Source: Escherichia coli O157:H7
Lineage (GTDB): Bacteria; Pseudomonadota; Gammaproteobacteria; Enterobacterales; Enterobacteriaceae
Direction: 5' to 3' (one strand)
Assembly: GCF_013167455.1 (NCBI RefSeq)
Contig: NZ_CP038328.1
DNA: 64,000 nucleotides
Positions 36,501-39,500 of the stretch are shown here, in pieces (position 1 is the first letter of the stretch; every line of letters starts with the position of its first letter). The position numbers were made by a program.

Positions 36501-39500
36501 CTATGCGCCGGTGAAAGTGGATGTGCGGATTATCGCTGCCACTCACCAGAATCTCGAACAGCGGGTGCAGGAAGGTAAGTTCCGTGAGGATCTGTTCCAC
36601 CGCCTGAACGTTATCCGCGTTCATCTGCCGCCGCTGCGTGAGCGTCGGGAAGATATTCCCCGCCTGGCGCGCCATTTTTTACAGGTTGCCGCGCGAGAAC
36701 TGGGCGTAGAAGCGAAGTTGCTGCATCCGGAAACCGAAGCCGCGTTGACGCGTCTGGCGTGGCCAGGCAACGTGCGCCAGCTGGAAAACACCTGCCGCTG
36801 GCTAACGGTAATGGCTGCCGGACAGGAAGTGTTGATTCAGGATTTGCCTGGCGAACTGTTTGAATCAACGGTTGCGGAGAGTACTTCGCAAATGCAACCG
36901 GACAGTTGGGCGACGCTTCTTGCGCAGTGGGCAGACAGAGCGCTACGTTCCGGTCATCAAAATCTGCTTTCCGAAGCGCAGCCAGAGCTGGAGCGGACGT
37001 TACTGACGACCGCGTTGCGACATACGCAGGGGCATAAACAGGAGGCGGCGCGGCTACTCGGCTGGGGCCGCAACACCCTGACGCGTAAGTTAAAAGAGCT
37101 GGGGATGGAGTGATTCACGGCTTGTGTGTAAAGATTGATTATTGAGCGCAAATTGCTGGTATTTTGCGCTTTACTGTTCCGATAAGTTCAGTATGATCTT
37201 GCCCGGAAAACGGGGAGAGTCATTATGCTGGAATCAATAATTAATCTGGTATCGAGTGGCGCAGTTGACAGCCACACACCGCAAACTGCTGTTGCTGCCG
37301 TGCTGTGTGCCGCGATGATTGGGCTGTTTAGTTGAGTTTCAGATTGCTGATGAAGTGCTCTTTGTTCATGCCAGATGCTGCGTGAACGCCTTATCCGGCC
37401 TACAAAAGCAATATTTTCAACAGGTTTTGTAGGCCTGATAAGCGTAGCGCATCAGGCAATCTTGTTCTCAGCACATTGATGGCGCTTTCGTTTTCTACTT
37501 TGTAAACGAAGCGCCATTCACTATTTAAATCACCCGAGAGAACTGCTGCATCCGCGCTTTCTGGCGCAGATAGGTATCAAAGCACATGCAAATGTTGCGG
37601 ATCAGCAAGCGACCTTTCGCCGTCACCTGTATTCCCTTCTCATCCACATCCACCAGCCCATCTTTTGCTAACGGGGCGAGCAGCTTGAGATCTTCCGCAA
37701 AGTAATCAGCGAAGTGCAAATCCCACTGTTTCTCAATAGGGGCGTAATCCAGACGGAAGTTGCAGATGAGCGACTTAATCACATCGCGGCGAATACAGTC
37801 ATCACGCGTTAGCGCAATACCACGCCACAGCGCATTGCCTTGTTCATCCACTTGCTGATAGTACTGCTTCAACTCTTTCTGGTTCTGCGCGTAGCAGTCG
37901 CCAATCATGCTGATGGCGGAAACGCCCATCCCCAGCAGATCGGTATCGCCCTGAGTGGTGTAGCCCTGGAAATTACGATGCAGCACGCCTTCACGCTGGG
38001 CCACCGCCAGCTCGTCATCCGGACGGGCAAAGTGATCCATACCGATAAACTGATAGCCCGATTGCGTCAGGAAGGCGATGGTTTCCTGCAGGATATCGAG
38101 TTTTTGCTGCGGACTCGGCAGGTCAGCATCTTTGATTTTGCGCTGAGCAGCAAAAATGGTCGGCAGATGCGCATAGTTAAAGACGCTCAGACGGTCAGGG
38201 TTTAGCTCCGCCACGCGTTTCAGGGTAAAGGCGAAACTTTCCGGCGTCTGTTTCGGCAGGCCGTAAATCAGGTCGATGTTGGTGGAGGTAAAGCCAATCT
38301 CACGCGCATGGTTAAGCAGCGCAAAGATAAACTCTTCATCCTGCTCGCGGTTAACCAGACGTTGCACTTCTTTGTTGAAGTCCTGCACGCCCATACTCAG
38401 GCGATTAAAGCCCTCGGCGCGTAAATGATCGAGTACATCCAGTTCGATTTCCCGCGGATCGACTTCGATCGAAATCTCCGCATCGGCATTGAACTGGAAG
38501 TTTTCGCGCAGCAGCTTCATCAGGCGGCTGATTTGCGCTTTATTAAGATACGTCGGCGTTCCGCCGCCCCAGTGCAGCTGGCTGACGTGACGCCCGGCGA
38601 ACAGCGGTGCACGATGGACGATTTCTTGCTCCAGCGCGTCCAGATACTGATCGGCCTTGTGCTGCTGGCGAGTAACAATCTTATTGCAGCCGCAGAAGTA
38701 ACAAAGCTTATGGCAGAACGGGATATGTACGTAGAGAGATAATGGACGCTCAGGATAGCGCGCCACGGCTTGTAAAAACGCCTGTTCGCCGAAGTCTTCT
38801 GAAAACTCCAGCGCGGTCGGGTACGAGGTGTATCGTGGCCCGGAATAGTTATATTTCTGGATCAGGGCCAGATCCCAGTCGATTTGCTGTACAGACATGC
38901 TCACTCCTTCCGATGGCGTCTCTGGCGGCTACGGCGTACCGGCGGATGCCCGTTTCGGGTCATCAGCCGGTTGCGCAGCCACTTTTGTCGCCGCGACAAC
39001 CGCTGTAGTTTAACGAATAACCACACCAGATAACATATAACCGGAAGGGTTATCAGCAGAACGGGAAGGCCCACGGCGGCAATCCGTTAGTTGCCCCGCA
39101 GCAGACGCATCATGTCTTCTTGCTTCTCGTCTTCTTCCTCTTCTTCGTCATCGTCATAAGAGAGGCCGAGTTTCTGCATCAACTCATCAATACGATCCAG
39201 TTTAGCATCCACCCAGGATTGCTCTTCGGCACTCAGGGTTTCGCCTGCTTCCAGACGTTCCAGCAGCGCATCCAGACGCTCATCCGTTTCTAGTAATTCC
39301 AACTCCGCCTGCGGTGAAAGCATAGGTTTCTCACTCTTCGGTTTGTGCTGTTTGGTGACTTTTTCAGTCACGCCCAATGGAATAGGGGTTTTACTGCCAA
39401 TACGTGGATCTTTCGGTGCGTTCTGGCCTTTGCTGCCTGACGTGTTGTTTCCGCCCGCTGCGCGGCTGCCCGGCGCATGACCACGACGTTTTTTCTGACG

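What the first reader, a model, noticed from the sequence alone, without database searches (positions are those of the whole stretch)
37225..37335. 36-codon hydrophobic small protein gene (yshB) between glnG and hemN
An ATG-initiated 36-aa ORF (MLESIINLVSSGAVDSHTPQTAVAAVLCAAMIGLFS) with a purine-rich upstream stretch lies in an otherwise unassigned gap and falls below the ORF-track cutoff. It matches the known small membrane protein YshB.
Basis: partly seen in the sequence, partly recalled or inferred. Interest (0 to 1): 0.2.

Follow-up and report, generated by a model that had tools for sequence, protein, structure and literature searches.

The report
Known small protein gene yshB

Summary
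The 36-codon ATG ORF at 37225-37335 (+) exists exactly as described, with a GGGGAGAG Shine-Dalgarno 5 nt upstream. An ORF this short is not significant alone: the same gap holds unconserved ORFs of 37 and 34 codons.

Evidence that it is a gene:
- RefSeq annotates it as yshB (WP_000893994.1). It scores 72 bits against NCBIfam NF033841 (cut-off 34).
- It is single-copy and full-length in 5425 of 5426 complete E. coli genomes. Three sampled alleles, with 2 to 5 base differences, all encode the identical protein.
- In a panel fetched through GlnG, not YshB, 41 Enterobacterales species carry a 35-41 codon ORF at the same place. All but the two Budvicia loci share the ATG.
- Substitutions follow codon position (0.34/0.16/0.57). 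dN/dS is about 0.1-0.3, and shifted frames show no such constraint.
- A TTTACT-16-TATGAT promoter is conserved.
- Published work reports the native protein by top-down mass spectrometry and cleavage by the intramembrane protease RseP. A Salmonella homologue is reported to promote intracellular replication.

Likely mechanism (inferred): an N-terminal amphipathic helix plus an alanine-rich C-terminal membrane helix with an invariant cysteine, acting on an unidentified membrane partner.

The gene is missing without remnants from 25 of 60 syntenic loci.

Verdict: already known; low interest.

The parts
37225..37335 (+). yshB coding sequence: 36 codons plus TGA, protein MLESIINLVSSGAVDSHTPQTAVAAVLCAAMIGLFS
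   Evidence: ORF list and translation. RefSeq CDS yshB WP_000893994.1 at the same place. NCBIfam NF033841 at 72.1 bits. Conserved frame and dN/dS of about 0.1-0.3.
37212..37219 (+). Shine-Dalgarno sequence GGGGAGAG, 5 nt upstream of the ATG
   Evidence: Read from the sequence. A G-rich GGGG/GGAG block sits at the same distance in all aligned orthologues.
37170..37197 (+). yshB's own sigma-70-type promoter: -35 TTTACT (37170-37175), 16-nt spacer, -10 TATGAT (37192-37197). The inferred transcription start is near 37204, giving a 5'UTR of about 20 nt.
   Evidence: It is the only promoter-like site found in 36900-37700. CTTTAC and GTATGAT(C) are nearly invariant from Escherichia to Serratia, Pectobacterium and Dickeya. 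[quoted passage not shown] The start site is inferred, not mapped here.
37144..37171 (+). Imperfect palindrome GAGCGCAAA-N10-TTTGCGCTT just after glnG, overlapping the first bases of the yshB -35. It is a candidate glnALG terminator hairpin and/or a protein-binding site.
   Evidence: RNA fold -11.2 kcal/mol with z -1.6, so weak as a structure. The core GCAAATTGCTGCTATTTTG, loop included, is conserved in sequence in Enterobacteriaceae, while the outer stem changes without compensation. Its role is not established.
37202..37215 (+). Small 5'UTR stem-loop CCCG-GAAAA-CGGG whose 3' arm overlaps the Shine-Dalgarno G-run
   Evidence: Per-sequence folds show a comparable hairpin in most Enterobacteriaceae orthologues, with some compensated variants such as CGC/GCG. 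It is not in register in the alignment, was not tested statistically, and is not evident in Pectobacteriaceae.
37370..37458 (.). BIME: two inverted REP elements (37370-37403 and 37429-37458) inserted between yshB and hemN. It forms a very stable 3' hairpin on the yshB transcript.
   Evidence: Inverted repeat 37390-37407 / 37425-37442, 94% complementary. Fold of 37336-37470 gives -53.2 kcal/mol, z -5.8. The 441-nt query has a median of 19 places per E. coli genome. There is a sub-threshold match to the REP-derived naRNA4 model. Several other genera have a far shorter spacer after yshB, for example about 40 nt between the yshB stop and the end of hemN in L003, L004 and L005.
37478..37518 (.). 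Stable hairpin between the BIME and the hemN stop codon; a terminator-like element shared by the convergent yshB and hemN transcripts
   Evidence: Folds at -20.5 kcal/mol (z -4.8) on the + strand and -20.4 (z -4.7) on the - strand. No U-run meets the scan's criteria, so terminator function is inferred.

Best explanation
This is yshB, an independently transcribed, translated core gene of E. coli encoding a 36-residue protein of the YshB family.

Shown here: the ORF, its Shine-Dalgarno sequence and a conserved sigma-70 promoter; strong purifying selection on this frame within E. coli and across Enterobacterales; and a two-helix architecture.

Inferred mechanism, about 0.5 likely in this form: after release from the ribosome, the alanine-rich C-terminal helix (residues about 19-36, PQTAVAAVLCAAMIGLFS) inserts into the inner membrane as a tail anchor, with the N-terminus in the cytoplasm. 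The N-terminal amphipathic helix (residues 2-13) lies on the cytoplasmic face. The protein then acts by packing its small-residue face (A22, A24, A25, C28, A29, G33), with its invariant Cys28, against a larger inner-membrane protein and modulating it, as other bacterial single-helix small proteins do.

Its level would be set by its own promoter, which is independent of NtrC and glnALG, and by turnover through the intramembrane protease RseP. The partner and the physiological output are unknown. The only reported phenotype is in a Salmonella homologue, which promotes replication inside host cells.
For: Identity:
- RefSeq annotates yshB at the same coordinates.
- NF033841 scores 72.1 bits against a cut-off of 34, full length.

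Reality as a gene:
- It is present, single-copy and full-length in 5425/5426 complete E. coli genomes.
- Three sampled alleles, about 2, 3 and 5 nt different from the window by percent identity, all encode the identical WP_000893994.1.
- E. albertii has 6 synonymous and 0 non-synonymous changes.
- In 80 loci retrieved through GlnG, the ORF is at the syntenic site in 41 species. The stop is in register in all, the ATG in 39, and lengths are 35-41 aa.
- Per-site differences by codon position are 0.344/0.158/0.573. dN/dS against the window is 0.07-0.35 for all but the two most distant loci, and shifted-frame controls give 0.97 and 2.67.

Expression signals:
- The -35/-10 and the SD are conserved.

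Translation:
- The native protein was detected by top-down MS (PMC12529367).
- More than 11,000 copies per stationary-phase cell were predicted, as cited in PMC7549839.

Architecture:
- AlphaFold2 with a 40-sequence alignment gives helices 2-13 and 17-35, with pLDDT about 84 over the C-terminal helix.
- The Kyte-Doolittle 15-residue maximum is 2.37 at residues 21-35. Residues 2-13 have a hydrophobic moment of 0.49.
- C28 is invariant. P19, Q20, A22, A24, A25 and A29 are at least 90% conserved.

Membrane and turnover:
- RseP cleaved YshB fusions in all four assays, both in vivo and in vitro with pure enzyme. The authors state that TMHMM or TOPCONS predicts one span for each protein they screened, YshB included (PMC10470546).
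Against: Identity as yshB has essentially no contrary evidence.

The mechanism has several weak points:
- The hydrophobic stretch is short, about 15-16 residues, and the 19-residue KD window is only 1.53, which is borderline.
- 39 of 41 orthologues have no Lys or Arg, so the positive-inside rule gives no orientation.
- The RseP data come from N-terminally tagged constructs, not the native protein.
- One proteomics paper lists it as 'the small protein YshB', apart from the 'small membrane proteins'.
- No partner is known, and no PDB entry contains a relative.
- The gene is absent without remnants from 25 of 60 syntenic loci, so it is dispensable in many lineages.
Confidence: 0.9

Rival explanations
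1. YshB is a soluble or only peripherally membrane-associated small protein. It would bind the membrane surface or a cytoplasmic target through its two short helices rather than spanning the bilayer.
For: The hydrophobic core is only about 15-16 residues, and the 19-residue Kyte-Doolittle window is 1.53, just below the usual 1.6. There are no flanking positive charges in 39/41 orthologues. The N-terminal helix is amphipathic. PMC12529367 names YshB separately from the 'small membrane proteins'.
Against: RseP, an intramembrane protease, cleaves YshB fusions in four independent assays, including with purified enzyme. TMHMM or TOPCONS predicts one span according to those authors. NCBIfam curators name the family a small membrane protein. 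The AlphaFold2 helix 17-35 is 19 residues long, enough to span a bilayer.
Confidence: 0.12
2. The functional product is the RNA, as an sRNA or a dual-function RNA. The ORF would then be secondary or only part of the function.
For: The transcript is short and independently transcribed, ends in strong hairpins, and sits at the locus where Pseudomonas carries the sRNA NrsZ downstream of ntrBC (PMC9731577).
Against: Variation is concentrated at third codon positions, and dN/dS is far below 1 only in the annotated frame. The RNAalifold consensus over the mRNA is negligible: -3.5 kcal/mol with a covariation term of -0.26. No Rfam family matches the ORF region. The protein itself has been detected. 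The 3' hairpins in E. coli are a lineage-specific REP insertion.
Confidence: 0.04
3. It is a type I toxin-like hydrophobic peptide (Hok, Ldr, Ibs, TisB or ShoB style) that damages the membrane when expressed and is held in check by an antisense RNA.
For: It is small and hydrophobic, and it shares RseP cleavage with the Hok toxins in the same screen.
Against: It matches no Pfam or PADLOC family. No promoter-like site was found on the opposite strand, and no Rfam antitoxin RNA. It is a single-copy core gene at a fixed syntenic position, not a repeated or mobile cassette. More than 11,000 copies per cell were predicted in stationary phase, which does not fit a toxin. It lacks the basic residues that I recall as common in type I toxins (composition; the comparison rests on my own knowledge).
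Confidence: 0.03
4. It is a chance ORF or a leader peptide with no product of its own.
For: ORFs of 34-37 codons also occur by chance in the same 411-nt gap.
Against: The frame is open in 41/41 orthologues and under purifying selection. The next gene, hemN, is convergent, with a BIME and a hairpin in between, so there is nothing downstream for a leader peptide to regulate. The protein has been detected.
Confidence: 0.01

Closest known systems
YshB of E. coli K-12 (WP_000893994.1; NCBIfam NF033841 'YshB family small membrane protein')
   Same: The protein sequence is identical. The K-12-type strain EMG2 carries the same WP accession at the same glnG-yshB-hemN position. The HMM match is full length and above the cut-off.
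   Different: Nothing at protein level. The window's allele differs from EMG2 by 3 synonymous bases (97.3% of 111 nt).
Salmonella enterica YshB (Bomjan et al. 2019, J Bacteriol 201:e00314-19; cited in PMC10470546 and PMC9731577, paper itself not held)
   Same: It is the orthologous small protein encoded downstream of glnG, with its own promoter, not induced by nitrogen limitation.
   Different: The phenotype, promotion of intracellular replication and virulence, was reported for Salmonella only. Nothing comparable is known for E. coli. I could not read the primary paper or compare the Salmonella sequence directly.
The 40-residue YshB form of other Enterobacterales (Kosakonia-like, Serratia, Pectobacterium, Dickeya, Hafnia and others)
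   Same: It has the same start, the same conserved core H-[ST]-P-Q-T-A-x-A-A-V-L-C-A-A, the same C-terminal end, and the same promoter and synteny.
   Different: The Escherichia/Citrobacter/Enterobacter form is 36 aa. It lacks 4-5 residues of the linker between the two helices and ends in GLFS rather than NFFS.
Single-helix regulatory small membrane proteins of E. coli (MgrB, AcrZ, MgtS, CydX, Blr)
   Same: They resemble it in size class, single predicted helix and own small gene. MgrB, CydX and Blr appear alongside YshB in the RseP substrate screen. This is the basis for the inferred mode of action, binding a larger membrane protein.
   Different: There is no sequence relationship. For those proteins a partner is known (PhoQ for MgrB; the others from my own knowledge). 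None is known for YshB. YshB is also unusual in having no Lys or Arg at all and no residues beyond the hydrophobic helix at its C-terminus.

Membership tests
YshB family small membrane protein (NCBIfam NF033841, equivalog) | Full-length HMM match above the curated cut-off (34 bits) | tested here: met
   72.1 bits, E 2.4e-20, residues 1-36 on profile positions 1-40.
YshB family small membrane protein (NCBIfam NF033841, equivalog) | 35-41 residue ORF with start and stop in register with the orthologues | tested here: met
   39 of 41 loci start at the aligned ATG, and all end at the aligned stop.
YshB family small membrane protein (NCBIfam NF033841, equivalog) | Conserved core motif: P-Q-T-A-x-A-A-x-L-C-A with an invariant Cys | tested here: met
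   The window has HTPQTAVAAVLCAA. C28 is invariant, and P19, Q20, A22, A24, A25 and A29 are at least 90% conserved in 40 sequences.
YshB family small membrane protein (NCBIfam NF033841, equivalog) | Syntenic position immediately downstream of glnG on the same strand, with its own promoter | tested here: met
   The ORF starts 111 nt after the glnG stop. The same arrangement holds in 41 species. The TTTACT-N16-TATGAT promoter is conserved.
YshB family small membrane protein (NCBIfam NF033841, equivalog) | Protein-coding selection on the frame | tested here: met
   Codon-position differences are 0.344/0.158/0.573. Pooled pN/pS is 0.40 against 0.97 and 2.67 in the shifted frames. Three sampled E. 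coli alleles differ only synonymously.
YshB family small membrane protein (NCBIfam NF033841, equivalog) | The protein is actually made | not testable with these tools
   Literature only: native YshB seen by top-down MS (PMC12529367), and a high synthesis rate cited in PMC7549839.
YshB family small membrane protein (NCBIfam NF033841, equivalog) | Integral inner-membrane location (single span) | tested here: inconclusive
   KD 15-residue window 2.37, but 19-residue window 1.53, which is borderline. There are no flanking basic residues. AlphaFold2 gives a helix at 17-35. RseP intramembrane cleavage is published for tagged constructs.
Type I toxin peptides (Hok/Ldr/Ibs/TisB/ShoB) | Sequence membership of a known toxin family | tested here: not met
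   No Pfam, PADLOC or PHROG family at E<=1.
Type I toxin peptides (Hok/Ldr/Ibs/TisB/ShoB) | Cognate antisense or overlapping RNA antitoxin | tested here: inconclusive
   No Rfam RNA over the ORF and no promoter-like site on the - strand in 36900-37700. Consensus scans cannot exclude a weak antisense promoter.
Type I toxin peptides (Hok/Ldr/Ibs/TisB/ShoB) | Toxicity on overexpression | not testable with these tools
   No data found in the papers read.
Leader peptide / attenuator uORF | A co-directional structural gene downstream whose expression it controls | tested here: not met
   The next gene, hemN, is convergent. A BIME and a stable hairpin lie between them.
Described non-coding RNA family (Rfam 15) | Covariance-model match at gathering score, or a conserved secondary structure | tested here: not met
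   The only hit is naRNA4 at 27.3 bits against a gathering score of 59.5, on the - strand, inside the REP element and outside the ORF. The RNAalifold consensus is -3.5 kcal/mol with a covariation term of -0.26.

The most novel reading that the evidence does not exclude
YshB may be a lysine/arginine-free tail-anchored micro-subunit. Its invariant intramembrane cysteine (C28), with the mostly conserved His17 at the membrane interface, would form a thiol-dependent contact with an unidentified inner-membrane complex: a disulfide, or a metal or cofactor ligand. RseP cleavage would switch this contact off. That would give a specific molecular basis for the Salmonella intracellular-replication phenotype. 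The evidence here does not exclude this, but it supports it only through the conservation pattern.
Probability: 0.12. Interest if true: 0.4.

Novelty: already known. Interest (0 to 1): 0.08.

Why it matters
Mostly it does not. The gene has been annotated since the 2008 small-protein surveys, is named in every RefSeq E. coli genome, and has a curated NCBIfam model.

The check does show that a tool-less reader can recover a genuine sub-cut-off small gene. It also adds a few descriptive points:
- The gene is under strong purifying selection.
- It has a promoter conserved across Enterobacterales.
- It has been cleanly lost from the syntenic site in many lineages.
- The E. coli form is a shortened derivative of a 40-residue ancestor.

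The biochemical function of YshB is still open. That is the only reason for any residual interest.

Tried and rejected
- The primary papers could not be read; none is held. These were Hemm 2008 and 2010, Bomjan 2019, Li 2014 and Storz 2014. Their content is cited only second-hand, through papers that are held.
- Pfam, PADLOC and PHROGs gave no family.
- A profile search of all PDB chains gave only chance matches at E about 0.7 to gamma-glutamyltranspeptidase. No solved complex contains a YshB relative.
- The exhaustive phmmer search of 1.8 billion representatives returned 15 hits. The 14 whose sequences I read look like enterobacterial YshB variants or mis-called and frameshifted versions of it. 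There was no distant family.
- An RNA-structure reading was tested and rejected.
- A search for yshB remnants in the loci that lack it found none.
- I looked for sigma-54, CRP, FNR and PhoP-box matches around the promoter by eye. None fitted in spacing, so I make no claim.
- The 5'UTR hairpin could not be scored with the count of structure pairs, because the loop length varies and the alignment is out of register.
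Full report
**1. The observation**

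Window 37225-37335 (+) holds an ATG-initiated ORF of 36 codons plus TGA. A purine run GGGGAGAG (37212-37219) lies 5 nt upstream of the ATG.

The ORF sits in the 411-nt gap between the glnG stop (37113) and the stop of convergent hemN (37525, - strand). An ORF of this size means nothing by length alone. The same gap also contains a 37-aa and a 34-aa ORF inside repetitive REP sequence. The case therefore rests on conservation.

**2. Identity**

The 441 bases around the ORF are 100% identical to many E. coli O157:H7 chromosomes. In these, RefSeq annotates glnG, then 'yshB: YshB family small membrane protein' (WP_000893994.1), then hemN at the corresponding coordinates.

The protein matches the NCBIfam equivalog model NF033841 (small_YshB) over its full length, at 72.1 bits against a curated cut-off of 34. 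It has no Pfam, PADLOC or PHROG family. No relative appears among PDB chains.

**3. Conservation within E. coli**

The 111-nt CDS is present once, full length, at 95% identity or more, in 5425 of 5426 complete genomes. It is annotated yshB in every sampled row.

I sampled three alleles: K-12-type EMG2 (97.3%, 3 differences), strain C25 (98.2%, about 2 differences) and AST85, the most divergent row listed in an evenly spaced sample of the ranking (95.5%, 5 differences). All three carry the same protein accession. Every difference is therefore synonymous.

**4.

To avoid circularity I fetched loci through the C-terminal 150 residues of GlnG rather than through YshB. This gave 80 species-representative loci, from Escherichia out to Shewanella and Photobacterium.

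A tblastn search then found a YshB-like ORF on the same strand shortly after glnG in 41 of them. The genera include:
- Escherichia, Citrobacter, Enterobacter, Kosakonia, Phytobacter, Pluralibacter, Kluyvera, Shimwellia and Mangrovibacter;
- Serratia, Pectobacterium, Dickeya, Brenneria, Hafnia, Edwardsiella and Budvicia;
- some Erwinia, Pantoea and Mixta.

Thirty-nine start at the aligned ATG; the two Budvicia loci use a different start. All 41 stop at the aligned position, and lengths are 35-41 aa.

| Measure | Annotated frame | Controls |
|---|---|---|
| Pairwise differences per site, codon positions 1/2/3 | 0.344 / 0.158 / 0.573 | – |
| Pooled pN/pS | 0.40 | 0.97 and 2.67 (two shifted frames) |
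| Orthologues with the frame open | 41/41 | 2-8/41 in four frames; 30/41 in one antisense frame |

Nei-Gojobori dN/dS against the window sequence is 0.07-0.35 for all but the two Budvicia loci. E. albertii shows 6 synonymous and 0 non-synonymous changes. Openness of the antisense frame is expected, from my own knowledge, opposite a GC-rich, Ala-rich coding sequence.

RNAalifold finds no conserved mRNA structure: -3.5 kcal/mol, with a covariation term of -0.26.

**5. Anatomy of the locus**

| Feature | Window coordinates | Evidence |
|---|---|---|
| glnG | 35704-37113 | Annotation |
| Imperfect palindrome | 37144-37171 | Weak fold, -11.2 kcal/mol, z -1.6 |
| Promoter: -35 TTTACT, 16-nt spacer, -10 TATGAT | 37170-37175 and 37192-37197 | Only promoter-like site in 36900-37700 |
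| 5'UTR stem CCCG/CGGG | 37202-37215 | Present in most Enterobacteriaceae |
| BIME, two inverted REPs | 37370-37458 | -53.2 kcal/mol, z -5.8 |
| Hairpin before the hemN stop | 37478-37518 | About -20.5 kcal/mol on both strands |

The palindrome's core sequence, loop included, is conserved in Enterobacteriaceae, while the outer stem varies without compensation. It may be the glnALG terminator, a protein-binding site, or both. It overlaps the yshB -35.

The motifs CTTTAC and GTATGAT(C) are almost invariant from Escherichia to Serratia, Pectobacterium and Dickeya. [quoted passage not shown]

The inferred 5'UTR is about 20 nt. The 3' arm of its small stem overlaps the SD. I did not test this stem statistically.

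The BIME explains why the 441-nt query hits a median of 19 places per E. coli genome. Several other genera have only about 40 nt between the yshB stop and the end of hemN.

**6. The protein**

AlphaFold2 with a 40-sequence alignment gives two helices, residues 2-13 and 17-35. Mean pLDDT is 73, rising to about 84 over the second helix.

- Residues 2-13 are amphipathic, with a hydrophobic moment of 0.49.
- Residues 21-35 form the hydrophobic core, with a Kyte-Doolittle mean of 2.37. The 19-residue window reaches only 1.53, which is borderline for a transmembrane span.
- C28 is invariant. P19, Q20, A22, A24, A25 and A29 are at least 90% conserved.
- 39 of 41 orthologues contain no Lys or Arg. This also explains why tryptic proteomics misses the protein.
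- The Escherichia/Citrobacter/Enterobacter form (36 aa) lacks 4-5 linker residues relative to the widespread 40-aa form.

**7. What the literature adds**

- Native YshB was detected intact by top-down proteomics (PMC12529367).
- It was predicted at more than 11,000 copies per stationary-phase cell (PMC7549839, citing Li et al. 2014).
- It is a class I substrate of the intramembrane protease RseP. It scored positive in all four assays, including with chromosomal RseP in vivo and purified enzyme in vitro, always as N-terminally tagged constructs (PMC10470546).
- A Salmonella homologue promotes intracellular replication and virulence (Bomjan et al. 2019, as cited). The primary paper is not held.
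- A C-terminally His-tagged YshB was not detectable in vivo.
- No paper in the library assigns a molecular partner.

**8. Mechanism**

Shown: a real, independently transcribed, translated and selectively constrained small-protein gene.

Inferred, at about 0.5: a tail-anchored single-span protein with its N-terminus in the cytoplasm. It would act by packing its small-residue, cysteine-bearing helix face against a larger inner-membrane protein. Its abundance would be set by its own promoter and by RseP.

The main mechanistic rival is a peripheral or soluble protein (about 0.12). The sRNA, type I toxin, leader-peptide and chance-ORF readings are each contradicted by specific tests.

**9. Distribution**

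Sixty loci contain both glnG and a convergent hemN.

| | Loci | glnG-hemN gap |
|---|---|---|
| With yshB | 35 | 241-2202 nt, median 294 |
| Without yshB | 25 | mostly 33-120 nt |

In the loci without yshB, nhmmer detects no remnant. They include Yersinia, Rahnella, Rouxiella, Tatumella, Rosenbergiella, several Erwinia and Pantoea, Cedecea neteri, Pseudocitrobacter, Pseudescherichia and one 'Klebsiella sp.'.

yshB is absent from the Shewanella and Photobacterium loci. The family therefore looks confined to Enterobacterales. It is ancient there, but repeatedly lost from this site or relocated. I could not search whole genomes to tell which.

**10. Verdict**

Both the observation and the interpretation are correct. 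The feature is an already known, curated gene. Novelty: already known. Interest: low, about 0.08. The only open question is the molecular function of YshB.

Noticed in passing
window 37370-37458 (REPs at 37370-37403 and 37429-37458): A BIME, a pair of inverted REP elements, lies between yshB and hemN. It folds at -53 kcal/mol (z -5.8) and gives the 441-nt query a median of 19 places per E. coli genome. It also gives a sub-threshold match (27.3 bits against 59.5) to the REP-derived naRNA4 model on the - strand. Several other genera have only about 40 nt between the yshB stop and the end of hemN. The 441-nt query reaches 80% coverage in 5244 genomes, but the CDS alone does so in 5425, so this spacer varies within E. 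coli.
   Followed up: partly
window 37128-37171: Two sequence blocks upstream of the yshB -35 are conserved across Enterobacteriaceae. One is TGTAAAGAT at about 37128-37137. The other is the palindromic core GCAAATTGCTG(C/G)TATTTTG at 37147-37166. The loop of the supposed glnALG terminator hairpin is conserved, while the outer stem changes without compensation. That pattern looks more like a protein-binding site than a pure terminator. No known consensus (sigma-54, CRP, FNR, PhoP) fitted by eye.
   Followed up: partly
window 37202-37215: A small 5'UTR stem-loop, CCCG-GAAAA-CGGG, lies at the predicted 5' end of the yshB mRNA, and its 3' arm overlaps the Shine-Dalgarno G-run. Comparable hairpins, some with compensated changes, occur in most Enterobacteriaceae orthologues but not obviously in Pectobacteriaceae. 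It could affect mRNA stability or translation.
   Followed up: partly
L008, L010, L018, L019, L022, L024, L028, L032, L034, L037-L041, L044, L046, L048, L050, L052, L054, L055, L059, L060, L066, L074 (glnG-hemN spacer): yshB is cleanly absent from 25 of 60 loci that keep glnG and convergent hemN. Most of these spacers are only 33-120 nt, and nhmmer detects no remnant. Several of the loci are inside Enterobacteriaceae, next to genera that have the gene. I could not determine whether the gene moved elsewhere in those genomes.
   Followed up: partly
window 37478-37518: A stable hairpin (about -20.5 kcal/mol on either strand, z about -4.8) lies 7 nt beyond the hemN stop codon. It probably acts as a shared bidirectional terminator for convergent yshB and hemN, although it lacks a clear U-run and the consensus scan missed it.
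   Followed up: partly
window about 39712-39878 (- strand; L001 5613-5779): RefSeq marks a short 'hypothetical protein' pseudogene (frameshifted, with an internal stop) between yihI and yihA in the identical O157:H7 genome.
   Followed up: no
E. coli genome search: Two of the 5425 yshB matches are on records labelled as plasmids, and one complete genome has no match at all. These are probably replicon mislabelling and an assembly or deletion oddity.
   Followed up: no
P0002, P0005, P0006, P0007, P0008: Several cluster representatives in the 1.8-billion-protein library are YshB N-termini fused to unrelated C-terminal tails. P0007, for example, continues into the frame of the REP-encoded ORF. 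They look like frameshifted reads or assemblies, not true variants. They show how small-gene entries in metagenome catalogues get corrupted.
   Followed up: no
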